NCBI RefSeq assembly: GCF_046154365.1
Contig: NZ_JBJXFV010000065.1
Coordinates: 2,006 to 66,005, forward strand
Direction: 5' to 3'
DNA length: 64,000 bases
Source of the DNA: Prosthecobacter sp.
GTDB lineage: Bacteria > Verrucomicrobiota > Verrucomicrobiia > Verrucomicrobiales > Verrucomicrobiaceae
Position numbers and translations under genes: made by a program. Positions 14,220-49,216 of this stretch are shown here, piece by piece (the stretch's first letter is position 1; each line of letters opens with the position of its first letter). The notes below the pieces were generated by a model. That model ran no database searches and had not been told where the DNA came from. It worked only from the letters and a program-made list of their open reading frames with translations.

Positions 14220-14266
14220 GCAGATGGGACAAATAGGACTGATGGGAGGAATGCGACGAATGCTTT

Positions 14267-16382: not shown

Positions 16383-19243
16383 TCCACATACACAAACTCG
16401 TTGGCGTTAAACAGTGATCGGCAGAAGGCAAAGAGTTCGTTGGCCTTGATGAACTCGGTGGCGAGCTGCTGTTCCTCGGCGGTGGGTTCGCGGGAAAAGG
16501 CGAGGGCGTAGGCTTGGTGGATTTGTTTCGCGAGATCGGTGCCGGCTTCGTGTTGCAGGCGCTCGGCGAAGTAACGGGACTGGCGGAGGATGAAGTCGTT
16601 GTTGAAGAGGGCGAGGGATTGCAGCGCGGTCGTCGTGGTCATGCGCGCGGGCGTGAGATTCGCGGGGTCGGGACAGTCGAGCGTGGTGAGGAATTTCTGC
16701 GGCGTGCTGCGCACGACGAAGCGGTAGATGCTGCGCCGCCATAGCTCGGGTGTGTCGGCGGTGATGTGCTGATACACGGGCGCGTAGCCTTCGGTGTAGG
16801 TGAAGTCGGTGAAGCCGGGGCCGCCGGTTTGCTGGAGGTTGAGCTTACCGGAAATGGCGAGGACGAAATCACGCGTGGCTTCGGCTTCGATGCGGCGCGG
16901 GTTTTGTCGCCAGAGGAATCTGTTTGATCCGTCTGATCCGACAGCTCGGTCGGATCTTTGTCGATAGGCTTGGCTCGTCACGATCAGCTTGTGCATGTGC
17001 TTGAGCGACCAGCCGCTTTTTAGCAGTTCATCAGCGAGATAATCGAGCAGCTCGGGATGCGAAGGCTGACCGCCGCCGAGGCCGAAGTCGCTGGGGGTGT
17101 TCACGATGCCTTGGCCAAAATGCCAGTGCCAGAGGCGGTTGACGATGACGCGCCTCGTCAATGGATTGCGCGGATCGGTGATCCACGCTGCGAGGGCTTT
17201 ACGGCGGTCGCCTTCGGGCGCGTCGAGGGTGCCGAGAGCGGGCTTGAGGTCGCGCAGAAGGCTCAGCGTGCCGGGCGGGATGGATTCGTCGGCGGGAGAC
17301 TCGGGATCGCCGCGTTTGAGAATCTGAACGGCGGGCGGTTTGTCGGCGATGACGGCGTAAACCTTGTCGGTGGTGACTTTGGCGTTCAGTTTGGCACTGA
17401 GTTGCTTCTCTTCGGCTCGCAGCGCGTTGACGCGGGCTTTGTCAGCGGCGGAGAGCGGCTGGGATTCGATGTCGAGCGTGAGTTTGGCATCGCCGAGGAA
17501 GAGGAGATCGTTGCTGATGCCGTCGCCGCCATCGGTGGCTATCAATGTGATCGTCGGCGCGTCAGTGGGGATGCTGAGATCGAGGTGCGCGGACTCATCT
17601 TTACGCATTTTGAGCCGCTGGAACTTTTGTTCGCTGCCGATGAACACCGTGAAGTCCGCGAGGCTCCTGGCGGCTTGTTGGTTGGCTCCAAAGCCAAGCA
17701 TCGCGGTGAAGCGCATCTTCGCGTAGCCACTGACTTTGCGAATCTCTTTGAGGTCGAAGGTGACGGCGCTGTTCGCGTGCAGGCCGAGGATGCTGTGGCC
17801 GTCTTTCGCATAGTCCGTGCCGTCGATGGTGGTGGAGACTTGAGCGTTGAGTGGTCCGTTGCGGATGGCGTCCCAGGTGTGCCCGGAGGTGGCGGGGATG
17901 CCGGAGGGCAGGTCGTTGGGGACTGAGACAAATAGGACTGATGGGACGGATGGGACCAATGTCTGGCGATTGCTTTTGATGTCGCGGTGGTAGCCGAGTT
18001 TGGCAATCGTGAGGCTGCCGTTGCGTAGGTCGATGCCGGTGCCTTTTTTGCCGATCATATCGGCGAGATCAAGGCCTTCACCGGTGAGTTTGGCGAGTTC
18101 GGTGGTGACCTGGCGGAGGCGCGTTTGTGTTTTGGCACGCTCGGCAGTGAGGCGGGCGGACTCGGCGGTGTCGAGATCGCGATCACCGCGCTTCAAGCCG
18201 GCGAACACGGACCACAGCGAGTAATACTCGCGCTGCGAGATGGGATCGAGCTTGTGATCGTGGCAGCGCGCGCAATTCACCGTGACGCCGCATGCAGCAG
18301 TCATGACCTGCGTGACCATGTCGTCGAGATCGAGGGTGCGAGCACTGCGGCGCAGCACATCGCTCTTTGTTTCGACCTGCCCGACGAAGTCATAGGGTCC
18401 GGCTGCGAGGAAACCGGTCGCCACGATGGATGGCTGATTCAACACATCGCCAGCGATCTGCTCGCGCAGGAACTGGTCGTAGGGTTTGTCGGCGTTCAGC
18501 GCATGGATGACGTAATCGCGGTAACGCCAGGCATTGTCGCGGCGCTGATCGCGCTCAAAGCCGTGCGTGTCGGCGTAATGCGCGATGTCGAGCCAGTGGC
18601 GGGCGTAACGCTCGCCGTAGCGCGGTGAGGCAAGCAAGCGGTCGATGAGCTTTTCATACGCCTTCGGGTCTTTGTCTTGGCGGAAAGCTTCCACCTCAGC
18701 CGGTGTCGGCGGAAGACCATGGAGATTAAAAGTGAGGCGACGAATGAGCGAGCGGCGATCCGCTTCGGGCGAGGGCTGTAGTTTGTTCTCGGCAAGTTTT
18801 GCTTGGATGATCGAGTCGATGCTCTGAGGCATGCCGAACTTCGTCAACGGCTGCCAAGCCCAGTGCGAGAGACGTTTGTCAGCCAGTGCGGCTTTGTCGG
18901 CGGCGTTCTCCGGCCACACCGCACCGGATTCGATCCACGTTTTAATCGCGGCGATCTGTGACGGCGACAACGCGTCGCCTTTCGGCGGCATGCGCTCCTT
19001 GTCATCCGTATTGGTGATGCGCTGGTAGAGCGGCGACTTGTCGGGCTTGCCAGCGACGATAGCGGGGCCGTCGTGACCACCTTTGAAAGCGAATGGCTTC
19101 GCATCGAGGCGCAGCTCGCCTTTGTGCTTCTTTTCGCCATGACATTCGATGCAGCTCTCCTGAAGCAATGGACGAATCTCACGGTCGAAATCGACGGCGA
19201 GAGCTGGAACAGCCGCCAAGAGAATGAAGATCGTGGTTCTCAT
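16379..19243 (-). CDS. PSCyt1 (CxxCH) - DUF1549 - DUF1553 (PSD1) giant secreted protein
   Basis: ORF of 954 aa with a signal peptide. Motifs are CIECHG, LIRRLTFNLHGLPPTPAEVEAF, YGERYARHWLDIAHYADTHG, CARCHDHKLDPISQREYY and the C-terminal NANEFVYVD. Confidence 0.9.
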   Translation of the reverse strand: MRTTIFILLAAVPALAVDFDREIRPLLQESCIECHGEKKHKGELRLDAKPFAFKGGHDGPAIVAGKPDKSPLYQRITNTDDKERMPPKGDALSPSQIAAIKTWIESGAVWPENAADKAALADKRLSHWAWQPLTKFGMPQSIDSIIQAKLAENKLQPSPEADRRSLIRRLTFNLHGLPPTPAEVEAFRQDKDPKAYEKLIDRLLASPRYGERYARHWLDIAHYADTHGFERDQRRDNAWRYRDYVIHALNADKPYDQFLREQIAGDVLNQPSIVATGFLAAGPYDFVGQVETKSDVLRRSARTLDLDDMVTQVMTAACGVTVNCARCHDHKLDPISQREYYSLWSVFAGLKRGDRDLDTAESARLTAERAKTQTRLRQVTTELAKLTGEGLDLADMIGKKGTGIDLRNGSLTIAKLGYHRDIKSNRQTLVPSVPSVLFVSVPNDLPSGIPATSGHTWDAIRNGPLNAQVSTTIDGTDYAKDGHSILGLHANSAVTFDLKEIRKVSGYAKMRFTAMLGFGANQQAARSLADFTVFIGSEQKFQRLKMRKDESAHLDLSIPTDAPTITLIATDGGDGISNDLLFLGDAKLTLDIESQPLSAADKARVNALRAEEKQLSAKLNAKVTTDKVYAVIADKPPAVQILKRGDPESPADESIPPGTLSLLRDLKPALGTLDAPEGDRRKALAAWITDPRNPLTRRVIVNRLWHWHFGQGIVNTPSDFGLGGGQPSHPELLDYLADELLKSGWSLKHMHKLIVTSQAYRQRSDRAVGSDGSNRFLWRQNPRRIEAEATRDFVLAISGKLNLQQTGGPGFTDFTYTEGYAPVYQHITADTPELWRRSIYRFVVRSTPQKFLTTLDCPDPANLTPARMTTTTALQSLALFNNDFILRQSRYFAERLQHEAGTDLAKQIHQAYALAFSREPTAEEQQLATEFIKANELFAFCRSLFNANEFVYVD

Positions 19244-23583: not shown

Positions 23584-24807
23584 GTGAGAGAGAGCCTGGA
23601 AGACTTGGAGAATTTCATCATCGACGTCGTCATCAACAACCGTCGCGGGATTCGCGCGGCCATGCTGCGGGGCGTCTTCCGCGGGCTTTCAGGCATCTAT
23701 TCGGCGGTGGTGCGGACCCGGCTCTACTTGTACCGCCATCGCTACATTCACGACCATCACCTCGGCGTGCCGGTCATCAGCGTCGGGAATCTCACTGTCG
23801 GTGGGACGGGCAAGACGCCGGTCGTGGAGATGCTGGCGAAGGCCTTGCAGGAGCATGGCCGGCGCGTGTGCATCCTGAGCCGCGGGTACAAGAGCAAGCG
23901 ACAGAGAAAGGTACCGTTCTCGAAAAAAATGGCCGCGCGCTTCGGCTTTATTCCGAAACCGCCGCAACCGCTGCCGCGCATCGTCTCTGATGGCGAAAAC
24001 GTCCTGCTCGACTCACACAACGCGGGCGATGAGCCCTTCATGCTGGCGAAGAACTGCCCCGGCATCCCGGTCGTGGTGGACAAAAATCGCGTGAAAGCCG
24101 GGGCGCATGCCATTCAGCGCTTCGGTGCCGACGTGCTCGTGCTCGACGACGGCTTGCAATACCTCAAGCTCAAGCACCGCCACGACATTGTGCTCATCGA
24201 CAAGACCGCCCCGTTCGGCAACAACGGCTTCATGCTGCCACGCGGCACGCTGCGCGAGCCACCACGCAGCCTGCTGCGCGCCAGCTACATCTTCATCACC
24301 AAATCTGATGGCGACAGCGAGGAGATCATCGCCCAGATCCGCCGCTACAACCGTGCCGCCGAGATCATTGAGTGCCGCCATCGGGCGATGCATTTTGAAG
24401 ACATCCACACTGGCGAACGTCTGCCGATGGACGGGTTGAAAGGCCAGTTTGTCGGCGCTTTGTCGGGAATTGCCGTGCCGGAGAGTTTTGAGAATGGTTT
24501 GCGCAAACTTGGAGCGAAGGTGGAGGTCATCGCCCGCTTCGCCGACCACCACCGCTTCCACGGCCCGGAACTGAAGCAGTTCGTCGAGCGCTGTGTGCGG
24601 CGTGACGTGCATTGCATGGTCACGACCGAGAAGGATTACGTGCGCTTCCCCAAACTGCCCGTCGCCGACATTCCGTTCTACTTCATGCGCGTCGAGATCG
24701 AGATCATTCGCGGCCGCGATGTCTTCGACAAGATGGTGCGCTTGATCGCGGAGCCACGCCGCGTGCCTGCGGGCGTGCTGCCGGCGGATTTCATGGAGGC
24801 TTCGTGA
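23584..24807 (+). CDS. lpxK: tetraacyldisaccharide 4'-kinase
   Basis: ORF of 407 aa with a GTG start. The P-loop context is VISVGNLTVGGTGKTP, followed by ILSRGYK and VLDDGLQ. Confidence 0.85.
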   Translation: MRESLEDLENFIIDVVINNRRGIRAAMLRGVFRGLSGIYSAVVRTRLYLYRHRYIHDHHLGVPVISVGNLTVGGTGKTPVVEMLAKALQEHGRRVCILSRGYKSKRQRKVPFSKKMAARFGFIPKPPQPLPRIVSDGENVLLDSHNAGDEPFMLAKNCPGIPVVVDKNRVKAGAHAIQRFGADVLVLDDGLQYLKLKHRHDIVLIDKTAPFGNNGFMLPRGTLREPPRSLLRASYIFITKSDGDSEEIIAQIRRYNRAAEIIECRHRAMHFEDIHTGERLPMDGLKGQFVGALSGIAVPESFENGLRKLGAKVEVIARFADHHRFHGPELKQFVERCVRRDVHCMVTTEKDYVRFPKLPVADIPFYFMRVEIEIIRGRDVFDKMVRLIAEPRRVPAGVLPADFMEAS

Positions 24808-25622
24808 TGAGCGCGGATAATCCAGCCATCGCCGAGGTCCGCATGGTCAAGGTGAACGTCACCGGCGTGCAAAGCGAAGTCAGCGATGTCACCGCACGCG
24901 AAGAGCCGCTGGAAATCCGCGTCGAAGGCCGCTCCGTGGCTGTGGTGATGCGCACGCCGGGTCACGATGAAGAACTCGCCGCCGGCTTCCTCGTCAGCGA
25001 AGGCGTAGTGCAGCGTCCGCGTGACATTTTGGAGATCTCGCAATGCCCCAGCACCGGCAACAACAAGGGCAACATCGTCGATGTGCTGCTCGGTGGTGCG
25101 GTGGTGAACTGGGACTCGCTCACGCGCCACGTCTTCAGCGCTTCAAGCTGCGGCCTGTGCGGCAAGACCAGCATCGAAAGCGTGTTTCAACAATTCCCTC
25201 CCGTGAAAGGCGACTGGCAGGTCACACCGGCCTTGATCGCGAGTTTGCCGGACAAACTGCGTGCCGCGCAGGAAACCTTTTCCAAAACCGGCGGCCTGCA
25301 TGCGAGCGGCATTTTTGACCTCGAAGGTAATCTTGTCGTGTTGCGCGAGGATGTGGGCCGTCACAACGCGCTCGACAAGATTCTCGGCTACGCCTTGCAG
25401 CGTGATCTGCTGCCGCTGGATCGCCACATCCTGCTCGTCAGCGGTCGTGTGTCGTTTGAGATCATTCAGAAGGCTCTCGCCGCAGGCATTCCACTGCTCG
25501 CCGCGATCTCGGCACCGAGCAGTCTCGCGGTCGAATTCGCCCAAGCAGCCAATCAAACGCTCATCGGCTTCCTGCGGGGCGAAACGATGAATGTTTACAC
25601 GCATCCGAGACGGGTCCGGTAG
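24807..25622 (+). CDS. fdhD: formate dehydrogenase accessory sulfurtransferase FdhD
   Basis: Lies inside ORF 24612..25622(+). The start is at ATG 24807, which overlaps the lpxK stop (TGATG). Supporting segments are EEPLEIRV, MRTPGHDEELAAGFL, SSCGLCGK, DVGRHNALDK and SGRVSFEIIQKA. Confidence 0.9.
   Translation: MSADNPAIAEVRMVKVNVTGVQSEVSDVTAREEPLEIRVEGRSVAVVMRTPGHDEELAAGFLVSEGVVQRPRDILEISQCPSTGNNKGNIVDVLLGGAVVNWDSLTRHVFSASSCGLCGKTSIESVFQQFPPVKGDWQVTPALIASLPDKLRAAQETFSKTGGLHASGIFDLEGNLVVLREDVGRHNALDKILGYALQRDLLPLDRHILLVSGRVSFEIIQKALAAGIPLLAAISAPSSLAVEFAQAANQTLIGFLRGETMNVYTHPRRVR
25530..25607 (+). repeat. direct repeat copy 1 (in-frame end of fdhD), 78 bp, partner at 26375-26452
   Basis: My hand alignment gives 74/78 identical bases (gtcgaattcgcccaagcagccaatcaaac...gaaacgatgaatgtttacacgca.ccg). 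Confidence 0.9.
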
Positions 25623-25651
25623 CTGAGCTGTCGCACTCCACGGCGTCGTAC

Positions 25652-26077
25652 TCAGTCCAGCCAGTTCTCCACCCGCAGGCCTGGCAGGCAAGTGAAGTCC
25701 TCGTCATTGCGCGTGAGCAGCGTGGCATCATGTGCCAGGCAGATGGCGGCGATTTTCAGATCCATGGTGCCGCCCCTGCGAAAGGCACGGCGCAAGCCGG
25801 AATAAATCTGCGCGGCATCGTCATCAAAAGGCAGCATCCCGAGCTTCACAACGATTTCCAAGGACTCCTGCATCCGCGCATACGTCTCCACCTGCGCGGG
25901 TCCGGCGGTGTGGCGTTGGAGCAGCGCCAGCCAACCTCGCACATCCTCCTCCACGGTCACGATGCAGGCAAAGACGGCGGCTTTCTCCGCAGGAATGCGC
26001 TCTCGGAGCCTGCGTCCCGCAGCGGAAGTGCGGCTCACGAGTTTCCGCAGGTGGTTCGTGTCTAAGATGGCGAACAT
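25652..26077 (-). CDS. vapC: PIN-domain toxin (VapC-like)
   Basis: ORF of 141 aa. It has the N-terminal MFAILDTNHL (PIN acidic residue) and the C-terminal TLLTRNDEDF. Confidence 0.85.
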   Translation of the reverse strand: MFAILDTNHLRKLVSRTSAAGRRLRERIPAEKAAVFACIVTVEEDVRGWLALLQRHTAGPAQVETYARMQESLEIVVKLGMLPFDDDAAQIYSGLRRAFRRGGTMDLKIAAICLAHDATLLTRNDEDFTCLPGLRVENWLD

Positions 26078-26274
26078 CAGCGGCGGGCATTCTCGGCTTT
26101 GCGCCAGGCCTCGCCCAGCCGTGCGGCTTCGCGGAACAGGGCATCATCCTTCACCGTCCCCGCCACCGCTGTCCAGTTTGACTTGGGCAAGGGCTTCCCC
26201 TGCGCCGCACGTCGCGCCCGCACGGACGTCACCAGAGTTTCCAATGCCTCCACGGGTTCATTTTTTGTCTTCAT
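26077..26274 (-). CDS. small antitoxin partner of the PIN toxin
   Basis: ORF 26077..26280(-) begins at GTG, and I prefer ATG 26274 (MKTKNEPVE). Its stop overlaps the vapC ATG (TGATG at 26075-26079). The call rests on size and position, as I recognised no family. Confidence 0.6.
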   Translation of the reverse strand: MKTKNEPVEALETLVTSVRARRAAQGKPLPKSNWTAVAGTVKDDALFREAARLGEAWRKAENARR

Positions 26275-26374
26275 GCCCACGATCTTAACTCGTCAGCCAA
26301 CCCTGACCACCAAAAATCTCTCCCTCTCATCTCTGACTTCTGTCCCTGCACTCATCCATCCACGAACCATCAAT

Positions 26375-26470
26375 GTCGAATTCGCCCAAGCAGCCAATCA
26401 AACACTCATCGGTTTCCTGCGGGGTGAAACGATGAATGTTTACACGCACCCGCAACGACTTACGCTTTAA
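26375..26470 (+). pseudogene. displaced relic of the fdhD 3' end (direct repeat copy 2 plus its own stop)
   Basis: It translates as VEFAQAANQTLIGFLRGETMNVYTHPQRLTL-stop, against the FdhD end VEFAQAANQTLIGFLRGETMNVYTHPRRVR-stop. The TAA at 26468-26470 lies 2 nt before the next gene's ATG. The sequence upstream of 26375 is unrelated to fdhD. Confidence 0.8.
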
Positions 26471-26472
26471 CC

Positions 26473-26895
26473 ATGAAACCGATCCAACCTGTTGTCCTCA
26501 TCATCTGGGCGGCGCTGTGCTTCGCTCTCATCGCTTATGCGGTGATGCTGAGCGCCATCACATTCGTGCCGGCCAAGGCGGTGCAACCGTTGCTGACGAA
26601 CATTTTTGCGCTGGTGGCCGGATGCTCCGCCGCGCTGAGTTTTTTCCTGCGCAAGCTGCTGCTGGGCGGATTCATTGACGGAACGCAGAGTGTGGATGAT
26701 CCGGCCAGCCGGGGGCGTTTTCTTGCCGGGCACATCGTGATTTTTGCGCTCAGCGAAGGCGTGGGGGTGCTGGGATTGGTGAACGGCTTGAACTCGAAGG
26801 GCGTGGGCGATGCCTGGGTGCCGTTTATCGGCGGGGCGCTGATCCTGATGCTGCTGCACATCCCGCTGCGGTCGCGTTTCAAGTCTCTCGCATGA
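26473..26895 (+). CDS. hypothetical integral membrane protein (about 4 TM helices)
   Basis: ORF of 140 aa with hydrophobic stretches throughout. It forms an ATGA overlap with the downstream cysteine desulfurase gene (26892-26895). Confidence 0.6.
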   Translation: MKPIQPVVLIIWAALCFALIAYAVMLSAITFVPAKAVQPLLTNIFALVAGCSAALSFFLRKLLLGGFIDGTQSVDDPASRGRFLAGHIVIFALSEGVGVLGLVNGLNSKGVGDAWVPFIGGALILMLLHIPLRSRFKSLA

Positions 26896-27995
26896 ACGGC
26901 TACTTCGATCACAACGCCACTACGCCGCTGCATCCCGCCGCACGCGAAGCATGGCTGCGGGCGAGCGAGAAGCACTGGCACAATCCTTCGAGCTTGTATC
27001 GCGATGCAGGCATTGCCAGCCAGCAGCTTGAGTCTGCGCGGGAACGGCTCGGCACACTATTAGGGGCCGAAGCGGAGCGCATCGTGTTCACCTCGGGTGC
27101 GACGGAGTCGAACAACGCTTTGATGGCGTCCTTTGAACGTGTGGCAATCTCCGCCATCGAGCATCCGAGTGTGCGCATGGCACGCAAGGCGCTGGAGCTG
27201 CCGGTCAATGCCAACGGTGTCGTGGAACCGGAGGCAGTGAAGCAGATGATCGAAGCGAAACGACCCGCACTCGTGTCCGTAATGGCGGCGAACAACGAAA
27301 GCGGCGCGTTGCAGCCCTGGCGTGAGATTGCGGCGATCTGCCGTGAGCATGACGTGTTGTTTCACACGGATGCAGCGCAGTGGCTCGGCAAACTCGACGC
27401 CGCCAACCTCGGGGAATGCGATTTCATCACCGGCAGCGCTCACAAATTAGGCGGCACCAAAGGCTGCGGTTTTCTGGTTCTGCCTGCTGAGGATTCGCGG
27501 CTGAATTTCATGCGTGGAGGGCCACAGGAAGGCGGCAGACGTGCGGGAACGGAGAATTATCCGGCGGTGGAGGCGATGGTGACGGCTTTGGAGGCGATCA
27601 CGCCTCGGCTTGATGAGGTTGAACGCGTGCAGACACAGTTGCGTGATGATTTCATCACAGCGATACGCGCACGCTTTGAAAACTTGCGTGTGATCAGCGA
27701 GTCCGCATCCCGACTTTGGAACACGGTGCTGATGGTGATGCCTGCCCAGCAAAATTTGAAATGGCTGACGGCCCTTTCGCGGCGTGGCTTCAGCATCTCG
27801 ACGGGTTCGGCGTGCAGTTCGGGCAAAGAGGGATCATCGGTCGTGGTCTCGGCGCTCGGAGCGAGCGCGGAGGAGCTGCGACGCGTCGTACGCATCAGCG
27901 GCGGCTGGGAGACGATGGCGGAGGACTGGCTGGCGCTGGCTGCGGCCTTCGGTGATGCGTTCGAGGAGCTGAGCCGGGGCGGTAGGCCGCAATAG
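26892..27995 (+). CDS. cysteine desulfurase (class V aminotransferase, NifS/IscS-like)
   Basis: ORF of 367 aa. Supporting segments are YFDHNATTP, FTSGATESNN and the PLP-lysine context GSAHKLGGTKGCGFLV. Confidence 0.85.
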   Translation: MNGYFDHNATTPLHPAAREAWLRASEKHWHNPSSLYRDAGIASQQLESARERLGTLLGAEAERIVFTSGATESNNALMASFERVAISAIEHPSVRMARKALELPVNANGVVEPEAVKQMIEAKRPALVSVMAANNESGALQPWREIAAICREHDVLFHTDAAQWLGKLDAANLGECDFITGSAHKLGGTKGCGFLVLPAEDSRLNFMRGGPQEGGRRAGTENYPAVEAMVTALEAITPRLDEVERVQTQLRDDFITAIRARFENLRVISESASRLWNTVLMVMPAQQNLKWLTALSRRGFSISTGSACSSGKEGSSVVVSALGASAEELRRVVRISGGWETMAEDWLALAAAFGDAFEELSRGGRPQ

Positions 27996-32744: not shown

Positions 32745-32846
32745 GCCCGCGACTGTGCGGCGGAAGTGCCATCGTGCAAGTGCGCCAATCTTTCCTTGCG
32801 CACAGGGGAGGGTCTTTGCCATGCTGCGGTTAATTGCTCGCAAAAA

Positions 32847-34397
32847 ATGTACACCGACGACTTCCAGCCTGAAAAACTCCTCGCCATAGGACCGGCGGCG
32901 AAGGTGTATCGCGGTATCGAAACGGCGACCGGACGCAAGGTGCTGCTTAAAGTGCTGCTGAACGATTACGAGGCCCCGCACCCGCTGGATCGCGAAAAAT
33001 TGCAGCTCCTCGCGCCCTTGCTCATGCAGGTGCGTCATCCGCAGATCGCCGGACTCATCACCCTGCTGCCTACGGAGGACGAGTTCGCACTGGTCTATGA
33101 ATTCATGCCGGGAGTGAACGCCCGGGACTTCGCCGCCGAGCGCCAGCCCGGGCCTGCGGATGTGCGTGCGCTCGCGGTGCAGTTGATGCAGGCGCTGCTC
33201 GTCGGCGAGCATCTGCGCCAGCCACATGGCGACCCCAAACCGAGCAACCTCATCATCGCTGATCATCCCGGCGGCGGCTTGTTCCTCCAAGTGCAGGACT
33301 GGGGTCTGTCGCTGGCACGCACGACGCTGCCACCGGAAACACTGTGGTTCCGTGCGCCGGAACTGCACGCCGGCGGCCGGCCGACATCGCAAAGCGATCT
33401 GTTCACCGCCGCCGCGAGTTTGTTCTGCATCGCCACTAACACCGCTCCGGCTCAAGGCGAAACCGTGGAGCAAGTCATGGCCGACTGGCATGCCTTCACC
33501 ACCAATCAGGTTCTAAAGCAGGTGCGGCTGGATTTGGATCAGCCGCTGCGTGACTGGCTGGCTTGGCTGCTCAACATGATGCCGCAGCAGCGGCCGCAGT
33601 CGGTGGCACAGGCGCTCGATGTGCTGATGGCGGGGATGCACCCCGGCTTCACTTACATGCCGCAGGAGGCACCAGCCATGGCGCCCGGCACGCAGACTGC
33701 ACAACTCGCCGCCGCCTCACATCCCAACGCGCCGAAGCCAAGGCCGATCATAGCGAAAGCCGCGCCCACAACATCGCACGGGATGAAACAATCCAACACG
33801 CCTGCTGCGACAGCGGCACCTGTGGTGAAGCAGCGTTCTGTCGGTCGCATTTTGGCCATGGTGCTGTTGAACGTCGCTGCCTTGGGCATCGCCGGCTTTT
33901 TCCTGTGGCCCATGCTCCGCAGCACCGAGGAGCAGACATCATCCAGTGTGAAAAGTACTGGCAAAACAGCGCCGAGCGCCGGTCTGCGGGGGCGTTATGT
34001 GCGCGTCGAGATATGGCGCAAAGACGTCCTCAACCTCGCGGAAGTCCAGGTCTTCAGCGGTATGGTGAACCTTGCCCGCCAAGGCACCGCCACCCAGAGC
34101 AGTGTGGAATGGGGAGGCGTGCCGGAGTTTGCCATCGACGGCAACACCGACGGCGTGATGGATCACCATAGCGTCTCACACACTCACAGAGATACGACAA
34201 ACCCGTGGTGGCAGCTTGACCTGAAAAGCGAAGTGAGCCTGAACACCATCATCATCTGGAACCGCACGGACGCGAAGTATGCAGGTCATCTGGAAAACTT
34301 TACCGTCAAGGTCTTGAACGAGCAGCAGAAAGTGGTCTGGGAGACGAAAGTGGTGCAACCGCCCACGCCCAGTGTCACGCTGCCGGTGGGCGGATAA
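32847..34397 (+). CDS. receptor-like atypical Ser/Thr kinase: cytoplasmic kinase-like domain, one TM helix, extracytoplasmic F5/8-type-C (discoidin) / F-type-lectin-like domain (paralog A)
   Basis: Lies inside ORF 32766..34397(+), with the start at ATG 32847 (MYTDDFQPEKL). Kinase landmarks are a degenerate Gly loop IGPAAKVYRG, VLLKVL, HGDPKPSNLII, QDWG and RAPELH. The TM helix is ILAMVLLNVAALGIAGFFLW. The lectin-like region is YVRVEI..LNLAEVQVF..GTATQSS..AIDGNTDG..HT..NPWWQLDL..IIIWNRTD. Confidence 0.75.
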   Translation: MYTDDFQPEKLLAIGPAAKVYRGIETATGRKVLLKVLLNDYEAPHPLDREKLQLLAPLLMQVRHPQIAGLITLLPTEDEFALVYEFMPGVNARDFAAERQPGPADVRALAVQLMQALLVGEHLRQPHGDPKPSNLIIADHPGGGLFLQVQDWGLSLARTTLPPETLWFRAPELHAGGRPTSQSDLFTAAASLFCIATNTAPAQGETVEQVMADWHAFTTNQVLKQVRLDLDQPLRDWLAWLLNMMPQQRPQSVAQALDVLMAGMHPGFTYMPQEAPAMAPGTQTAQLAAASHPNAPKPRPIIAKAAPTTSHGMKQSNTPAATAAPVVKQRSVGRILAMVLLNVAALGIAGFFLWPMLRSTEEQTSSSVKSTGKTAPSAGLRGRYVRVEIWRKDVLNLAEVQVFSGMVNLARQGTATQSSVEWGGVPEFAIDGNTDGVMDHHSVSHTHRDTTNPWWQLDLKSEVSLNTIIIWNRTDAKYAGHLENFTVKVLNEQQKVVWETKVVQPPTPSVTLPVGG

Positions 34398-34505
34398 GGC
34401 AAGGCGCATGCTTTCCCATGTGGCTGGCGGCGGCTTTCGTGCCGCCAATCTTCGCTTGCACAACGCGCATGGTTCTTGCGATGCTGCTGCAAATCGCCGC
34501 CCAAA

Positions 34506-36155
34506 ATGCCCGCCGACCACTTTCAGCCCGAAAAACTCATCGCCGCCGGACCTTCGGCGAAGGTGTATCGCGGCATGGAACCAGCCACTGGGCGCAAGGT
34601 GCTGATCAAAGCGCTGCTGCACGATCATGAGACCGCGCAGCCGCTGGATCGCGAGCAGTTGCAACTGCTCGCCCCATCGCTCATGCAGCTGCGCCATCCG
34701 CAGATCGCGGGACTCATCACCCTGCTGCCCACGGAGGATGAGTTTGCGCTCATCTATGAATTCATGCCGGGATTGAACGCGCGCGCCTTTGCAGCGGAGC
34801 GCAAACCGACGCCGACCGATCTCCGTGCGCTCGCGGTGCAGCTCATGCATGCGCTGCTGGTGGGCGAGCATCTGCGCCAGCCGCATGGCGATCTGAAACC
34901 GAGCAACCTCATCATCGCCGACCACCCTGGCGGCGGCTTGTTCCTCCAGGTGCAGGACTGGGGCCAGTCGCTGGCACGCAGGGAGCATCCGCCGGAGACG
35001 CTATGGTTTCGCGCACCCGAACTCCACGCGGGCGGCACACCGACGACGCAAAGCGATCTGTTCACCGCCGCCGCGAGCCTGTTCTGCATCGCCACCAACA
35101 CCGCACCTGCCCAAGGTGACACCGTGGAGCAGGTCATGACAGACTGGCGGGCATTCAACGCCGGACAGGTGCTCAGCCACATGCGTCCTGATTTGGACCA
35201 GCCGTTGCGCGACTGGCTGGGCTGGCTGCTCAATCTCGCCCCACAACAGCGTCCACACTCAGTGGCGCAGGCACTGGATGCCTTGATGCTCAGCATGCAG
35301 ACCGGCTTCACCTACATGCAGCAGCAGGCACCGGCCATGGCGCCCGGTACGATGACCGGACCATTGGTCTCGGCTGTGCATCCCAATACGCCCAAGCCGA
35401 AACCGATTGTGCCCAAGTCATCGCCCGCAGCAGCCGCACAGCCAGAAGCGGCGGCGAAACAAGGTTCCGGCAGCCGTTTCTTGATCGCCGTGGTGCTCAA
35501 TCTCGCCGCCTTCGTGCTGAGCGGCATTTTCCTCTGGCCGTTCATTCGTGAAGCGATCTCTGATTGGAAATTCACCACCACTGCAAGCAGCACGGTCAAA
35601 GCCGCCGCCATGGCTCCGCCATCCGCACCGGACCACGCTGGCAAACCAACGCCCACGGTTACGCAAGCCAAGTCTGCTGTGACCACCAGCGTCGCGAAAC
35701 CGCCGGTGGCTCCCGCTGCGAGCGGTCCCGGCTTGAACGGGCGTTTTGTGCGCATCGAGATCCCCGTCAGCCGCGGTATTCTCAACCTCGCTGAAGTGCA
35801 GGTCTTCAGCGGTGGCGAGAATCTCTCTCTCAAAGGCACCGCCACGCAGAGCAGCGTCAGTGGCGAAGGAAGGCCCGAACTAGCCATCGACGGCAACACG
35901 GATGGCGACAAGACCAAGAACAAAAGCGTCATGCACACCAATGGCAACGCACGCGGCGCGCCGTGGTGGGAGGTCGATCTCGGTCGCGATGCGCCGGTGC
36001 AGACCATCGTCATCTGGAATCGCACTGACGCGGAATACGGTGACCGCACCGTGAACCTCACAGTGCAGGTGCTCGACGCGGAAAAGCAGGTTGTTTGGCA
36101 GAAAAAGGGCCTCCCAAAGCCCGACCCGTCGCTCGAACTCGCTGTCGGCCAATGA
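34506..36155 (+). CDS. receptor-like atypical Ser/Thr kinase with an F5/8-type-C / F-type-lectin-like ectodomain (paralog B)
   Basis: Lies inside ORF 34476..36155(+), with the start at ATG 34506 (MPADHFQPEKL). Kinase landmarks are AGPSAKVYRG, VLIKAL, HGDLKPSNLII, QDWG and RAPELH. The TM helix is FLIAVVLNLAAFVLSGIFLW. The lectin-like region is FVRIEI..LNLAEVQVF..GTATQSS..AIDGNTDG..HT..APWWEVDL..IVIWNRTDAEYGDR. Confidence 0.75.
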   Translation: MPADHFQPEKLIAAGPSAKVYRGMEPATGRKVLIKALLHDHETAQPLDREQLQLLAPSLMQLRHPQIAGLITLLPTEDEFALIYEFMPGLNARAFAAERKPTPTDLRALAVQLMHALLVGEHLRQPHGDLKPSNLIIADHPGGGLFLQVQDWGQSLARREHPPETLWFRAPELHAGGTPTTQSDLFTAAASLFCIATNTAPAQGDTVEQVMTDWRAFNAGQVLSHMRPDLDQPLRDWLGWLLNLAPQQRPHSVAQALDALMLSMQTGFTYMQQQAPAMAPGTMTGPLVSAVHPNTPKPKPIVPKSSPAAAAQPEAAAKQGSGSRFLIAVVLNLAAFVLSGIFLWPFIREAISDWKFTTTASSTVKAAAMAPPSAPDHAGKPTPTVTQAKSAVTTSVAKPPVAPAASGPGLNGRFVRIEIPVSRGILNLAEVQVFSGGENLSLKGTATQSSVSGEGRPELAIDGNTDGDKTKNKSVMHTNGNARGAPWWEVDLGRDAPVQTIVIWNRTDAEYGDRTVNLTVQVLDAEKQVVWQKKGLPKPDPSLELAVGQ

Positions 36156-36176: not shown

Positions 36177-39155
36177 ATGCGGCGGGCACTGATTTCGCAT
36201 GTGAGTCCGGCGTATGAATCTCCAATCGTGAAAAGCTCCCCAGCCCTTCTTTTGTTCCTGCTCGCGTCGCCCGCCGCCGCTATCGACTTCGTTCGGGACA
36301 TCCAACCGATCTTCAGTGAGCACTGCTACCAGTGCCACGGCCCGCACAAGCAGGAAGCCGCGTTCCGTCTCGATCACAAGCCCAGCACTCTTAAAGGCGG
36401 CGACTTCGGCATCGCCATCGTTCCCGGCAAGGCCGAGGAGAGCCGCCTCATGCACGCCGTGCTTGGCACGAATCCAAAAATTCGCATGCCACGCAAAGGC
36501 GGTCCGCTCACCGCCGATCAAATCGCGAAGCTCAAAATCTGGATCGATACCGGAGCCATTTGGCCGGACAGCGCGAGCGTGAAGCTCGAGCAAAAAACTG
36601 ATCATTGGGCTTTCAAGCCGCCCGTGAAGCCGAAAGTGCCCGCGAATGCCAAGCATCCCATTGATGCGTTCATCCGTGAGCGCCTCGAAAAAGAAGGCCT
36701 CCAACCTTCACCAAGAGCCGCGCCGGAAACCCTGCGTCGTCGCTTGCACCTTGATCTCGTGGGCCTGCCGCCGGATCCGTCCGACCTGTCAGACCCGTCA
36801 GACTTGTCCGACAAACTTCTGCAGTCCCCCCACTTCGGCGAACGCTGGGCACGTCACTGGCTCGACGCCGCACATTATGCCGACAGCAACGGCTATGAGA
36901 AAGACCCCATGCGCTTCATCTGGTTCTATCGTGACTGGGTCATCAGCGCCTTCAACCGCGACCTGCCCTACGACCAGTTCATCATCCAGCAGCTTGCCGG
37001 CGATCAGCTTCCCAAGCCCACGCAGGATCAAATCGTCGCCACCGGCTTTCTGCGCAACACCATGGTCAACGAAGAAGGCGGCGTCGATCCCGAGCAGTTC
37101 CGCATGGAGGCCATGTTCGACCGCATGGACACCATCGGCAAAAGCATCCTCGGCCTCACCATCGGCTGCACGCAGTGCCACAACCACAAGTACGATCCCA
37201 TCACGCAGGAGGAGTACTACCGCATGTTCGCCTTCCTCAACAACGACAACGAGCCATGGCGCGTCGTGTACACCGCCAGCGAGCAGATGCAGCGCTCCAC
37301 ATTGCTTGCTCGCATCGCCGAACTCGAAGCCAAGCTCAAACACGATCATCCCGACTGGCAGCAGCGCATGAACGCCTGGTCCACCGGCATCAAGACCGCG
37401 CAGCCGAAATGGCGCACGCTCAGTTTTGAAGACGATCCCTCCGGCGGCGAAAAAGCACTGCGTCAGGCGGATGGCAGCATCCTTGCACAAGGCTACGCGC
37501 CGACGAAATCCGAGGTGAAGTTCGTGGTGAAGCTCGAAACGCCCGTCACTATCAGCGCTTTCCGGCTCGAACTCATGAACGACCCCAATCTGCCCGCCTA
37601 CGGCCCCGGACGTTCGCAGAAAGGCACCGCCGCCCTCACCGAGTTCAACGTGGAGATGAAGATCGACGGCAAGATGACGAAGCTGAAGTTTGTCAAAGCC
37701 AGCGCCGACTTTGGCGAGCCGGAGAACACGCCGCTCGCGCCGTTTGCCCGCGATCAAGACGCCGCGAAAGACAAACGTGTCACCGGACCAGTGAGCTACG
37801 CCATCGACGGCAACGACAAAACCGCCTGGGGCATCAATGCCGGTCCCGGCCGCCGCAACGTGCCGCGCAACGCCGTCTTCGTGCTCGAAAAACCCGTCGA
37901 GGTGAAACCTGACGTCGAACTCACCGTCGGCCTCAGCATGAAACACGGCGGCTGGAACAGTGATGACCTGCAAACCATGAATCTCGGCCGCTATCGCATC
38001 AGCAGCACCGAAGCGCCCAATGCGGAGGCCGATCCACTGTATGGCAAGAAGTCCGAGTTCACCGCCTTCCGCACCACCGTCCCCGAGTGGAAATCCATCA
38101 ATGACGAAATCGAAGCCGCATGGCAGCAGCACCCTGAAGGCACCACCACGCTCGTGCTCGATGCACGCGACCAGCCGCGCATGACCGCGCTGCTAAAACG
38201 CGGTGACTTTACCAAACCCGGCGGTTCAGTCACCGCTGGCGTGCCCGCCATCCTCAATCCACTCCCGCAGAACGCGGATGGCAGCCGTTTGACCTTCGCG
38301 AAGTGGCTGGTGAGCAAACAATCGCCCACCACGGCCCGTGCTTTCGTCAATCGAGTGTGGCAGACCGTTTTCGGCACCGGTTTGGTCGAAACCGCCGAAG
38401 ACTTCGGCACGCAGGGCAGCCCCCCGAGTCATCCTGAACTGCTCGACTGGCTCGCCGCCGACTTCATGGAGCACAACTGGAGCACCAAGCATCTGCTGAA
38501 GCTGATCATCACCAGCGAAACCTATCAGCAGTCCAGCAACGTCACGCCGCAACTCCTCGAACGCGATCCCTACAACCGCCTCCTCGCTCGCGGACCGCGA
38601 TTCCGCGTCGAGGGTGAAGTCGTGCGCGACATCCAACTCGCCGCCAGCGGCCTGCTCAATTCCGAAGTCGGCGGACGTCCTGTCATGCCGCCAGCACCCG
38701 CGCATCTCTTCGAAAAACCCGCCAGCTACGCGCCCTTCCCGTGGAAAGTCGAGGACGGTGCTGAGAAGTATCGCCGCAGCGTTTATGTCTTCCGCCGCCG
38801 CAGCACGCCGTATCCGTTTTTGAGCACCTTCGACGTGCCCAACGGCGAATCCTCCTGCATTCGTCGCTCCAAGAGCAACACACCATTGCAGGCGCTCATG
38901 ACGCTCAATGAAACCATGAGCATGGAGACCGCCAAGGCCCTCGGTGAACGCATGTGGCTGGAAGGTGGCGCTAATGATGCCTCTCGCATCGCCCACGGCT
39001 TCAAACTCTGCACCGGTCGTGCTCCGAGCACCAAAGAAGCCGCCGTCCTCCTTGCGATGCTGAAACGCCACCAGTCCCAGCCCGGCGAGATTGACCCACA
39101 CACCCTCGTCGCCCGCGTCCTGCTTAATCTCGACGAGACGATCACGAAGGAGTGA
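36177..39155 (+). CDS. PSCyt1 (CxxCH) - DUF1549 - DUF1553 giant secreted protein
   Basis: ORF of 992 aa. In-frame GTG 36228 would give a cleaner signal peptide (VKSSPALLLFLLASPAAA). Motifs are CYQCHG, RRRLHLDLVGLPPDPSD, FGERWARHWLDAAHYADSNG and CTQCHNHKYDPITQEEYY, plus an internal discoidin-like region with AIDGNDKTAWG. Confidence 0.9.
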   Translation: MRRALISHVSPAYESPIVKSSPALLLFLLASPAAAIDFVRDIQPIFSEHCYQCHGPHKQEAAFRLDHKPSTLKGGDFGIAIVPGKAEESRLMHAVLGTNPKIRMPRKGGPLTADQIAKLKIWIDTGAIWPDSASVKLEQKTDHWAFKPPVKPKVPANAKHPIDAFIRERLEKEGLQPSPRAAPETLRRRLHLDLVGLPPDPSDLSDPSDLSDKLLQSPHFGERWARHWLDAAHYADSNGYEKDPMRFIWFYRDWVISAFNRDLPYDQFIIQQLAGDQLPKPTQDQIVATGFLRNTMVNEEGGVDPEQFRMEAMFDRMDTIGKSILGLTIGCTQCHNHKYDPITQEEYYRMFAFLNNDNEPWRVVYTASEQMQRSTLLARIAELEAKLKHDHPDWQQRMNAWSTGIKTAQPKWRTLSFEDDPSGGEKALRQADGSILAQGYAPTKSEVKFVVKLETPVTISAFRLELMNDPNLPAYGPGRSQKGTAALTEFNVEMKIDGKMTKLKFVKASADFGEPENTPLAPFARDQDAAKDKRVTGPVSYAIDGNDKTAWGINAGPGRRNVPRNAVFVLEKPVEVKPDVELTVGLSMKHGGWNSDDLQTMNLGRYRISSTEAPNAEADPLYGKKSEFTAFRTTVPEWKSINDEIEAAWQQHPEGTTTLVLDARDQPRMTALLKRGDFTKPGGSVTAGVPAILNPLPQNADGSRLTFAKWLVSKQSPTTARAFVNRVWQTVFGTGLVETAEDFGTQGSPPSHPELLDWLAADFMEHNWSTKHLLKLIITSETYQQSSNVTPQLLERDPYNRLLARGPRFRVEGEVVRDIQLAASGLLNSEVGGRPVMPPAPAHLFEKPASYAPFPWKVEDGAEKYRRSVYVFRRRSTPYPFLSTFDVPNGESSCIRRSKSNTPLQALMTLNETMSMETAKALGERMWLEGGANDASRIAHGFKLCTGRAPSTKEAAVLLAMLKRHQSQPGEIDPHTLVARVLLNLDETITKE

Positions 39156-43326: not shown

Positions 43327-43410
43327 CGGGCAGTGATTCAAACGTGAACGACTGGAGTTACTTTCCTCGGCAACAGGCCGCCGCTTCATCCCGTAGGTTT
43401 GTGCCCCCTG

Positions 43411-49121: not shown

Positions 49122-49216
49122 GCGCCAAGGGTGCTCTCCCGGCCCCGATCTGTCAACGCTCCAAACCACGGAGAAACCATAGAGAGACCCGTCACCGACA
49201 GCGTTTGTTTCACCGC

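What the first reader, a model, noticed from the sequence alone, without database searches (positions are those of the whole stretch)
25530..26470. VapBC cassette bracketed by 78-bp direct repeats that duplicate the 3' end of fdhD
Bases 25530-25607 are the in-frame end of fdhD, encoding VEFAQAANQTLIGFLRGETMNVYTHP. They recur at 26375-26452 with 4 mismatches by my hand alignment. The roughly 770 bp between the copies contain only a minus-strand antitoxin + PIN toxin pair. The distal copy still ends in its own stop (…HPQRLTL-TAA), placed 2 nt before the ATG of the next gene (26473). It therefore looks like the original fdhD end with native coupling to the downstream membrane-protein and cysteine-desulfurase genes. 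The proximal copy supplies a replacement C-terminus (…HPRRVR). This is the classic attL/attR signature of an element that integrates into a gene's 3' end and carries a substitute end, yet no integrase or other cargo is present. One reading is that a larger island decayed and only its addiction module survived. The other is that a minimal TA cassette was mobilised in trans.
Basis: seen in the sequence. Interest (0 to 1): 0.65.

Follow-up and report, generated by a model that had tools for sequence, protein, structure and literature searches.

The report
Toxin-antitoxin islet inserted in fdhD's end
A small toxin-antitoxin gene pair sits inside the tail of a housekeeping gene (fdhD) of a Prosthecobacter-like bacterium. 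It is bracketed by a duplicated piece of that tail, carries no recombinase, and appears to be an old insertion passed between lineages by homologous recombination, which is a tidy example of a known kind rather than a new one.

Summary
Bases 25530-25607 recur at 26375-26452 with 74/78 identity and no chance expectation, and only a convergent vapC (PIN) / vapB pair lies between the copies. Fifteen relatives (L001-L003, L005-L012, L015, L023, L098, L100) have an empty site, with fdhD directly followed by the 140-aa gene; where gene calls exist they overlap by 4 nt.

The same cassette, with the same left junction (…RVR|TAG) and a decayed distal fdhD copy, occurs in a second lineage (L085). That lineage is about 81% identical in both core genes and cassette, and it also has an empty-site sister. 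A third lineage (L004) shares the junction but carries different cargo.

I found no integrase, transposase or terminal inverted repeats in the cassette, the window or L085's extra 4.7 kb.

In both filled genomes the gene just right of the insertion is far more diverged from the sister lineage (dS 1.4-1.8) than the left flank (0.4-0.8). Three empty/empty sister pairs show no such jump. This is a recombination mosaic.

My best reading is an old, non-autonomous vapBC islet with an att-like gene-end duplication. It is kept as a presence/absence polymorphism and exchanged by homologous recombination. How it first arose is unresolved.

The parts
23584..24807 (+). lpxK (407 aa). This is the conserved left-flank core gene; its stop overlaps the fdhD start (ATGA).
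   Evidence: Pfam LpxK 8.1e-79. It is syntenic in all close relatives.
24807..25622 (+). fdhD, 271 aa, ending …YTHPRRVR-TAG. This is the target gene, with a shortened and substituted C-terminus; empty-site relatives in this clade are mostly 274 aa (range 268-279).
   Evidence: Pfam FdhD-NarQ 2.6e-73 and NCBIfam NF001943 at 301 bits, above its cut-off. C-termini of 120 homologues were compared.
25530..25607 (+). Proximal 78-nt repeat copy (A), the in-frame fdhD 3' segment. Its sequence is that of the window's own lineage.
   Evidence: It is 91-92% identical to the sister lineage L001/L002, the same as the rest of the gene.
25608..25622 (+). Substitute tail AGA CGG GTC CGG TAG (RRVR*). The RVR|TAG junction is shared with L085 and L004.
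   Evidence: Alignments. It is unlike the displaced tail at 26453-26476.
25623..25651 (.). 29-nt spacer between the convergent stops of fdhD and vapC. It begins with the conserved TAGC-N3-RCTG left end of the insert.
   Evidence: No terminator-like site was found.
25652..26077 (-). vapC-like PIN-domain toxin, 141 aa. The acidic residues D6, E43, D105 and D123 are present by inspection.
   Evidence: Pfam PIN 1.2e-9, above the gathering score. Sub-threshold NCBIfam VapC hits. PDB VapC 5k8j, 3dbo and 3zvk. 86% aa identity to the L085 copy.
26077..26280 (-). Putative vapB antitoxin, 65-67 aa; the start is probably the ATG at 26274. Its stop overlaps the vapC start by 1 nt.
   Evidence: It is conserved upstream of the PIN gene in four contexts at 61-77% identity. 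Only a weak PF09957 hit, E=0.019.
26281..26374 (.). C-rich spacer upstream of vapB, presumably the vapBC promoter/operator region and the right end of the insert. About the first 40 nt are conserved in L085.
   Evidence: GC drops to 0.50 with GC skew -0.43. The blastn match to L085 ends at 26319. An inverted repeat spans the vapB start at 26260-26273/26304-26317. No sigma-70 consensus hit.
26375..26452 (+). Distal 78-nt repeat copy (A'), the displaced fdhD 3' segment. Its reading frame is intact and it differs from A by 4 synonymous changes. Its nearest relative is the window's own proximal copy.
   Evidence: 74/78 to A, 70/78 to L002, 69/78 to L001.
26453..26476 (+). Displaced original fdhD tail (QRLTL-TAA-P-TGA). 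It has a premature TAA at 26468-26470, and the ancestral TGA at 26474-26476 overlaps the next gene's ATG.
   Evidence: by comparison with L002 …CTTCCATCATGA.
26473..26895 (+). 140-aa membrane-protein gene with no family match, called mem140 in this report. Relatives overlap fdhD here. In the window it is a tract of anomalously deep divergence that marks a recombination breakpoint.
   Evidence: No Pfam, NCBIfam or PHROG hit. dS 1.83 against L001, versus 0.50-0.79 for fdhD and lpxK. Sliding identity of 60-64%. It branches outside the clade.
26892..27995 (+). Class-V aminotransferase / NifS-IscS-like cysteine desulfurase. This is right-flank core where sister-level identity returns.
   Evidence: Pfam Aminotran_5 2.6e-41 and NCBIfam NifS/IscS hits below their equivalog cut-offs. 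About 85% identity to L001 from roughly 26900 onward.

Best explanation
This is an old, non-autonomous toxin-antitoxin islet. It is a vapBC-type (PIN toxin plus small antitoxin) module of about 0.77 kb that was once inserted into the last codons of fdhD. The insertion duplicated the preceding 78-93 nt of the gene. The result is: fdhD…A | TAG-vapC-vapB | A'-original tail-ATGA-next gene. The insert gives fdhD an immediate stop codon, so the gene stays functional but 1-3 codons shorter.

The filled site has persisted as a presence/absence polymorphism in a Prosthecobacter clade. It is passed between lineages, or replaced by the empty allele, through homologous recombination. The left crossover falls in the conserved fdhD end. 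The right crossover falls 0.25-0.45 kb to the right, in or after the poorly conserved membrane-protein gene.

In the window the two 78-nt copies are kept alike by gene conversion. In L085 the distal copy has decayed.

Shown by the evidence: the architecture, the empty sites, the shared junction, the absence of recombinase genes, and the flank mosaic.

Inferred only: the single ancient origin, the gene conversion, and the idea that the TA pair's addictive property counter-selects A x A' deletions. How the first insertion was made (integrase, Campbell-type recombination or an illegitimate event) is not resolved.
For: 1. Empty sites. Thirteen close relatives have lpxK-fdhD-mem140-csd contiguous. 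Two QRVR-type lineages, L098 and L100, also have fdhD overlapping mem140. None of the 84 loci held at that point has a second fdhD C-terminal copy.

2. Same unit in a second lineage. L085/L086 carry fdhD (271 aa, …QRVR-TAG), then vapC (86% aa) and vapB (75% aa). They are colinear with window 25407-26319 at 80.7% nt, followed by a 47-nt distal fdhD copy at 83% identity that contains a TAC>TAA nonsense change and missense changes. Core genes lpxK+fdhD are 80.8-81.1% identical.

3. Patchy distribution. In the core tree the window is sister to the empty L001, and L085 is sister to the empty L012.

4. The junction RVR|TAGC-N3-RCTG is shared by the window, L085 and L004. L004 carries different cargo.

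5. No recombinase or mobile-element hallmarks were found. No close relative occurs on plasmids (41% identity at most) or in IMG/VR.

6. Recombination mosaic.
   - mem140 dS is 1.83 (window-L001) and 1.40 (L085-L012), against 0.40-0.79 for lpxK and fdhD in the same pairs.
   - Three empty/empty sister pairs give mem140 dS of 0.49-0.58, equal to their core genes.
   - dN/dS is unchanged.
   - The diverged tract starts at the insertion and ends after about 420 nt in the window and about 210 nt in L085.
   - The left flank shows no dip.
   - The window's mem140 branches outside the clade.

7. The distal copy is most similar to the window's own proximal copy (74/78), although the sequence on both sides of it is not sister-like. 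This fits gene conversion.

8. TA-only islets without mobile-element genes, spreading by homologous recombination at flanking core genes, have been proposed for Photorhabdus (PMC13617665).
Against: - The mosaic rests on only two filled/empty pairs against three controls. I cannot tell whether the filled genomes imported the cassette or the empty sisters imported an empty allele.
- The left crossover lies right at the junction in both lineages. That asymmetry would also fit a site-specific left-hand event.
- If the distal copy drifts neutrally between conversion events, four out of four synonymous third-position differences is unlikely (P about 0.003-0.012). This hints that the distal copy came from a functional fdhD of a close relative.
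- Equal divergence of cassette and core is also expected for any donor within the clade, so it does not prove co-descent.
- Toxicity and neutralisation of the pair are untested, and the antitoxin has no family assignment.
- Only 64 kb of this genome was available, so a recombinase acting in trans cannot be excluded.
Confidence: 0.6

Rival explanations
1. CIME-like remnant. On this reading the repeats are true attL/attR sites of an integrase-bearing island that targeted the fdhD 3' end and then lost its integration genes. The cassette would still be moved site-specifically, by a cognate integrase encoded elsewhere or by accretion with an incoming element.
For: - The architecture (direct repeats that include the target gene's 3' end, a substitute end, empty sites) is that of e14 in icd/icdC (PMC13626634) and of CIMEs (PMC5704250).
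- The left junction is at exactly the same nucleotide in three lineages.
- L085 looks like a tandem accretion: copy 1, vapBC, a middle copy, 4.7 kb of other genes, then the lineage's own tail.
- L004 has other cargo behind the same junction.
- No donor tract lies left of the junction.
Against: - No tyrosine or serine recombinase was found in the cassette, the window, or L085's 4.7 kb.
- L085's 4.7-kb block has no long right-hand att copy.
- Both repeat copies are lineage-specific in each lineage, rather than one of them being element-type.
- The right flank carries a variable-length diverged tract, which site-specific integration does not produce.
- No empty-site or circle joint appears in the four metagenome assemblies, although contigs give weak evidence here.
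Confidence: 0.2
2. Self-propagating 'homology-homing' cassette. On this reading, recombination between A and A' releases an 845-bp circle (one repeat plus vapBC). The circle re-enters an empty fdhD in the same or a transformed cell by a single Campbell-type crossover in the 78-nt arm. The TA pair would be a recombinase-free selfish element that uses a captured gene end as its integration arm.
For: - The unit bounded by the repeats is just vapBC in two lineages.
- Both repeat copies track the host lineage, as expected if crossovers fall anywhere in the arm.
- The four differences between copies are all synonymous, as if each copy had recently been part of a functional fdhD.
- There are no recombinase genes.
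Against: - A Campbell insertion leaves the right flank native, yet mem140 is not sister-like in either filled genome.
- 78 nt is a poor substrate for RecA.
- The element is rare: three lineages among more than 100 fdhD loci and homologues examined.
- No circle or empty joint was detected.
- Relatives of the cassette at 72-74% identity in other loci have no gene-end repeats.
Confidence: 0.12
3. One-off illegitimate or homology-facilitated insertion that happened to duplicate the target. On this reading the structure is purely vertically inherited, and all empty sites are secondary losses by A x A' deletion.
For: - Cassette divergence equals core divergence between the window and L085.
- Deletion between the direct repeats would restore a perfect empty site.
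- The distal copy in L085 has decayed as an old pseudogene would.
Against: - This needs at least five independent precise losses on the core tree.
- It does not explain the right-flank dS jump or the outlier position of the window's mem140.
- It does not explain the foreign RRVR tail in a QRLTL-type lineage, or the L100-type tail in L004.
Confidence: 0.06
4. Assembly artefact or chance repeat.
For: None beyond the fact that the window comes from a metagenome-type assembly.
Against: - Chance expectation for the repeat is zero.
- Both junctions are covered by independent contigs in four runs.
- The same architecture is present in two other samples.
Confidence: 0.01

Closest known systems
TA-only 'islets' in chromosomal spots, proposed to spread by homologous recombination at flanking core genes (Belot et al. 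2026, Photorhabdus; PMC13617665)
   Same: A type II TA pair sits alone between core genes, with no transposase or integrase. Its distribution among close relatives is patchy, and there is evidence that flanking homology mediates exchange.
   Different: Here the insertion lies inside a gene's 3' end and inside an apparent fdhD-membrane gene-desulfurase operon. It keeps a 78-nt duplicated gene end as a visible integration scar. The organism is a verrucomicrobium, and nothing has been tested experimentally.
e14 / phage 21 integration into the 3' end of icd in E. coli, leaving the icdC fragment (Hill et al. 1989; PMC13626634)
   Same: The element sits in the 3' end of a housekeeping gene. The gene is completed by sequence at the left junction, and the displaced 3' fragment remains as a direct repeat at the far end. 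The copies differ mainly by synonymous changes, and recombination between them restores the gene.
   Different: e14 is a 15-kb prophage remnant with its own integrase and SOS-induced excision. Here the unit is 0.77 kb, has no recombinase, and supplies only a stop codon plus, in the window, four foreign codons.
CIMEs (cis-mobilizable elements), e.g. ICESt1/ICESt3-derived elements in the fda 3' end of Streptococcus thermophilus (Pavlovic et al. 2004; reviewed in PMC5704250)
   Same: It is a non-autonomous element that retains att-like direct repeats at a gene's 3' end after loss of integration and transfer genes. The tandem-accretion-like array in L085 is also similar.
   Different: No cognate ICE or integrase is known or found. 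The repeats are 78 nt rather than about 27 bp. The third (right-hand) copy expected of an accretion is missing in L085. The flank mosaic points to homologous rather than site-specific exchange.
VapBC type II toxin-antitoxin systems (PIN-domain RNases, e.g. PDB 5k8j, 3dbo, 3zvk)
   Same: It has a PIN domain with the four acidic residues, a small upstream gene with overlapping stop and start, and sequence similarity to VapC structures.
   Different: It scores below NCBIfam's VapC equivalog cut-offs. The antitoxin fits no curated family above threshold. Activity and target are unknown.

Membership tests
Type II toxin-antitoxin, VapBC | Toxin is a PIN-domain protein with the conserved acidic quartet | tested here: met
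   Pfam PF01850 at 39.3 bits, above the 23.6 cut-off. D6, E43, D105 and D123 are seen in the translation. PDB VapC hits.
Type II toxin-antitoxin, VapBC | Small antitoxin gene immediately upstream, co-oriented and translationally coupled | tested here: met
   The stop of the gene at 26077-26280 overlaps the vapC start by 1 nt. The pair is conserved in L085, L087 and L091.
Type II toxin-antitoxin, VapBC | Antitoxin belongs to a recognised antitoxin family (DNA-binding N-terminus plus toxin-binding C-terminus) | tested here: inconclusive
   Only PF09957 at E=0.019, 15.3 bits against a 23.4 cut-off. No PDB relative with E<0.1.
Type II toxin-antitoxin, VapBC | Toxin arrests growth and the antitoxin neutralises it | not testable with these tools
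   This needs a kill/rescue assay.
Site-specific integrative element / CIME | Direct repeats (attL/attR) that include the 3' end of the target gene, with an empty attB in relatives | tested here: met
   Fifteen empty sites.
Site-specific integrative element / CIME | A cognate tyrosine or serine recombinase, in the element or in a related helper element | tested here: not met
   None found in the cassette, in the 38 large ORFs of the window (PHROGs: 8 families, none for integration; Pfam: 25 of 29 families listed, none a recombinase), or in the L085 island. The rest of the genome was not available.
Site-specific integrative element / CIME | Excision to a circular form with a fixed crossover point | not testable with these tools
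   Only Logan contigs exist for the four runs, and they show no skipping or circular joint. Contigs cannot show absence.
Transposon / IS / MITE | Terminal inverted repeats and a short target-site duplication, with a transposase for autonomous forms | tested here: not met
   No inverted repeat pairs the two ends of the insert. The duplication is 78 nt. No transposase.
Integron gene cassette | attC recombination site at the cassette end, with a nearby intI/attI | tested here: not met
   No attC-like imperfect palindrome at either end, no IntI-type recombinase, and flanking repeats are fdhD coding sequence.
TA islet exchanged by homologous recombination at flanking core genes | TA pair alone between conserved core genes, no mobile-element genes, presence/absence among close relatives | tested here: met
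TA islet exchanged by homologous recombination at flanking core genes | Flanking DNA shows recombination tracts that begin at the insertion | tested here: met
   The right-flank dS jump appears in both filled/empty pairs and in none of three control pairs. Tract ends are at about 420 nt and about 210 nt. The sample is small, and the direction (gain or loss) is unresolved.

The most novel reading that the evidence does not exclude
The cassette could be a recombinase-free selfish element that uses a captured 78-nt piece of fdhD as a homing arm. Recombination between the repeats would release an 845-bp circle, which re-inserts into empty fdhD alleles by a single homologous crossover. The toxin-antitoxin pair would kill cells that lose it. 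That would be a minimal mobile 'addiction cassette' needing only the host's RecA.
Probability: 0.1. Interest if true: 0.7.

Novelty: new member of a known kind. Interest (0 to 1): 0.4.

Why it matters
This case shows, at nucleotide resolution, how a toxin-antitoxin pair can live as a minimal insertion inside a housekeeping operon. The operon here is fdhD, a membrane protein and a cysteine desulfurase, which is a sulfur relay for formate dehydrogenase maturation. The insertion does not inactivate fdhD.

It also shows how such an islet can persist for a long time and move between lineages with no mobility genes of its own.

The locus offers a natural test of a standing idea: that TA addiction protects DNA from deletion. 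Here a 78-nt direct repeat should delete the pair precisely and restore the wild-type gene.

It is also a caution for annotation. Gene-end duplications look like attL/attR but need not mean an active integrase.

Tried and rejected
- **Junction pattern scan.** I scanned JGI metagenome contigs for the junction pattern (…YTH..RVR-TAG). It returned only L085's own contig and one unrelated high-GC fdhD ending HPWRVR. There were no further filled sites.
- **Mobile-element carriers.** An IMG/VR scan with VapC found nothing. The best plasmid hit is 41% identical. No carrier element was identified.
- **Exact-protein look-ups.** The 140-aa protein has no exact match. The window's VapC returned only a 1,050-nt Logan contig. 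No same-species empty allele and no extra context could be obtained.
- **Excision in the metagenomes.** I laid Logan contigs of four runs on the locus. No contig skips the cassette. Contigs break at the repeats and cannot show rare variants.
- **VapC relatives elsewhere.** Relatives at 72-74% identity lie in other loci (L087-L091: between cytochrome c3 and HAD genes, and beside FGE-sulfatase genes). They have no flanking gene-end duplication, so the repeat is not a general property of this vapBC family.
- **L004 cargo.** Homologues of its DUF4230 protein were traced. They lie in unrelated contexts without fdhD, so the far end of L004's insertion remains unseen.
- **QRVR-type fdhD lineages.** L098 and L100 were checked as possible native homes of vapBC. 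Both have empty sites.
- **Family searches.** Pfam, PHROGs, PADLOC and NCBIfam on L085's five extra genes and L004's two genes gave no informative family.
- **Promoter and terminator scan.** No hits.
- **Rfam.** Only tRNA-Cys at 46341.
- **Inverted repeat inside the repeat unit.** The one at 26400-26441 was considered as a recombinase core site. By eye (sequence) the arms are only about half complementary in L085's fdhD, so I treated it as chance.
- **Relaxed selection on the membrane gene.** I rejected this as the explanation for its divergence, because dS rises while dN/dS does not.
Full report
**1. The observation**

The repeat is real. Bases 25530-25612 match 26375-26457 over 83 nt at 93% identity. 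The first 78 nt have four mismatches. A 29-nt core occurs only at these two places in the window, with zero matches in 100 shuffles. No other direct repeat in the 64 kb is as well conserved; the rest are diverged paralogous genes.

Both copies encode VEFAQAANQTLIGFLRGETMNVYTHP, and all four differences are third-position transitions.

The genes in and around the finding are:

| Coordinates | Strand | Gene | Evidence |
|---|---|---|---|
| 23584-24807 | + | lpxK | Pfam |
| 24807-25622 | + | fdhD, 271 aa | Pfam and NCBIfam FdhD |
| 25652-26077 | - | PIN-domain gene (vapC-like) | Pfam PIN |
| 26077-26280 | - | 65-67-aa gene; its stop overlaps the PIN start by one base | |
| 26473-26895 | + | 140-aa membrane protein, no family match ('mem140' below) | |
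| 26892-27995 | + | NifS/IscS-like cysteine desulfurase | |

The PIN protein resembles solved VapC toxins. The small protein has only a sub-threshold VapB_antitoxin hit, but it accompanies the PIN gene in four different contexts.

Logan contigs from four biofilter-metagenome runs cover both junctions with no mismatch, so the arrangement is not an assembly artefact.

**2. The organism and the empty site**

FdhD homologues place the window in Prosthecobacter (Verrucomicrobiaceae). Nearly all close homologues are 274 aa and end …HPQR(V/I/L)xxxx. The window's protein is 271 aa and ends …HPRRVR.

In thirteen loci of the closest clade, lpxK, fdhD, mem140 and the desulfurase gene are contiguous. Two further lineages (L098, L100) also have fdhD overlapping mem140. 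In the five loci with gene calls (L001-L003, L098, L100) the fdhD stop overlaps the mem140 start by 4 nt.

None of the 84 loci held when one search was run has a second copy of the fdhD C-terminus.

In the window, the displaced tail after the distal copy still carries the ancestral in-frame TGA that overlaps the ATG (26474-26476). The TAA at 26468 is a premature stop two codons earlier.

**3. Other filled sites**

A VapC relative (P0147) led to L085/L086, which come from two samples. These carry fdhD of 271 aa ending …QRVR-TAG, then vapC (86% aa identity) and vapB (75%). The region is colinear with window 25407-26319 at 80.7% nt identity.

Directly after the vapB upstream region lies a 47-nt copy of the fdhD end. 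It is 83% identical to the proximal copy, carries a TAC>TAA nonsense change and missense changes, and has lost its left part. So the same repeat-bounded vapBC unit exists in a lineage whose core genes are only 81% identical to the window's.

Beyond that middle copy, L085 has five further genes (4.7 kb) with no family matches and no recombinase. Then come a short sequence that looks like the lineage's own fdhD tail and mem140.

A third lineage, L004, also has a 271-aa fdhD ending …QRVR-TAG. Behind the junction it has different genes, a 108-aa secreted or membrane protein and a DUF4230 protein. The contig ends after 0.8 kb.

The three share the junction RVR|TAGC-N3-RCTG. In L085 and L004 the RVR codons match native ends of QRVR-type lineages (L098 …CGGGTGAGGACATGCCCATGA; L100 …CAGCGAGTGAGAACG…). 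The insert proper therefore begins with the TAG stop. In the window, whose own tail is QRLTL-type, the RRVR codons are foreign.

**4. No mobility genes**

- No terminal inverted repeats link the two ends of the insert.
- The 38 larger ORFs of the window hit no integration or transposition family. PHROGs returned 8 families, none for integration. Pfam listed 25 of 29 matched families, none a recombinase.
- A motif heuristic found no tyrosine-recombinase-like ORF.
- The VapC has no relative in IMG/VR and none above 41% identity on plasmids.
- Related vapBC pairs at 72-74% identity sit in other loci without gene-end repeats.

**5. History**

On a tree built from lpxK plus fdhD, the window is sister to the empty L001 (87.7% nt), and L085 is sister to the empty L012 (90.8%). 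Filled sites are therefore scattered among empty ones.

The proximal 78 nt are lineage-native in both filled genomes (91-92% to the sister, like the rest of fdhD). The window's distal copy is closest to its own proximal copy (74/78), then to L002 and L001.

The gene just right of the insertion behaves differently:

| Sister pair | mem140 dS | lpxK / fdhD dS |
|---|---|---|
| Window vs L001 (filled/empty) | 1.83 | 0.79 / 0.50 |
| L085 vs L012 (filled/empty) | 1.40 | 0.40 / 0.40 |
| Three empty/empty pairs | 0.49-0.58 | same range as their core genes |

dN/dS is unchanged, so this is not relaxed selection.

- In the window the diverged tract (60-64% identity) runs from the end of the distal repeat to about 26900, where identity to L001 returns to about 85%.
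- In L085 it covers about the first 210 nt of mem140.
- The left flank shows no dip.
- The window's mem140 branches outside the whole clade.

These are recombination breakpoints tied to the insertion. The filled allele, or the empty one in the sisters, was exchanged by homologous recombination, with one crossover in the conserved fdhD end and the other at a variable distance to the right.

The distal 78 nt are an island of lineage-like sequence between foreign stretches. The simplest explanation is gene conversion from the proximal copy. The all-synonymous pattern of the four differences (P about 0.003-0.012 under neutrality) is not fully explained by that. I leave it as an open point.

**6. 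Mechanism**

The present-day element is best described as a non-autonomous TA islet. It carries an att-like scar, is old, is polymorphic in the clade, and is moved by homologous recombination. This is the route proposed for TA-only islets in Photorhabdus (PMC13617665).

Deletion between A and A' would restore a perfect fdhD-mem140 junction. The addictive property generally attributed to type II TA pairs would select against such deletions. That step is an inference.

The first insertion event may have been integrase-mediated, as with e14 in icd/icdC (PMC13626634) or with CIMEs left after ICE decay (PMC5704250). It may instead have been a Campbell-type or illegitimate event. The data do not decide.

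L085's array resembles tandem accretion but lacks the third repeat copy.

**7. Verdict**

It is a new, well-resolved member of known kinds (a TA islet or CIME-like scar). Interest is moderate.

The most novel reading still open is a recombinase-free homology-homing cassette. I rate it at about 10%, because it does not predict the right-flank mosaic.

Noticed in passing
L085:886-5553 (JGI Ga0169931_10002241); also L086: Five consecutive genes (429, 263, 175, 360 and 279 aa) lie between the decayed middle fdhD copy and the membrane-protein gene. None has a Pfam, PHROG, PADLOC or NCBIfam match, and none has a relative in the window. This is a 4.7-kb block of ORFans at the same hotspot.
   Followed up: partly
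L004:988-1797 (Logan ERR14949513): A third lineage has the same fdhD …RVR|TAG junction, but it is followed by a 108-aa signal/TM protein and a DUF4230 protein instead of vapBC. Its last 17 nt of fdhD are identical to L100's native tail, although the two genes are only about 76% identical overall. The contig is too short to show the far end.
   Followed up: partly
window 26473-26895: The 140-aa membrane-protein gene evolves fast everywhere (65-77% nt identity between lineages whose core genes are 80-85% identical). In the window it branches outside the whole clade. It has no family match.
   Followed up: yes
L098:6302-7258: In one empty-site lineage an extra 318-aa minus-strand gene with no Pfam hit sits between the membrane-protein gene and the desulfurase gene. 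This is another small insertion in the same operon.
   Followed up: no
window 26400-26414 / 26427-26441 (and the same positions of the proximal copy, 25555-25596): A 15-nt imperfect inverted repeat (87% complementary, 12-nt spacer) lies inside the repeat unit. By eye its arms are only about half complementary in L085's fdhD, so it is probably chance.
   Followed up: partly
window 26099-26470 (+): A 123-codon ORF, antisense to vapB, reads in frame into the distal fdhD copy. Its GC3 is 0.62, lower than that of neighbouring genes, so it is probably not coding. If translated, it could deliver ribosomes to the downstream gene.
   Followed up: no
window 14225-14262 and 17924-17961: A 38-nt sequence (TGrGACAAATAGGACTGATGGGAsGrATG…) occurs twice at 87% identity, once between genes and once inside a 954-codon ORF. 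It has no Rfam match.
   Followed up: no
window 32766-36155, 36177-39155, 43399-46029, 49205-52171 and neighbours: The window holds several paralogous sets typical of Planctomycetes-Verrucomicrobia: PSCyt/PSD (DUF1549/DUF1553) proteins paired with DUF1501 proteins, plus sulfatases. These account for the other long diverged repeats in the window.
   Followed up: no
window 25652 (run X3): A contig in the same biofilter metagenome matches from the vapC stop inward but has unrelated sequence outside it. A related vapC therefore sits in another context in that community.
   Followed up: no
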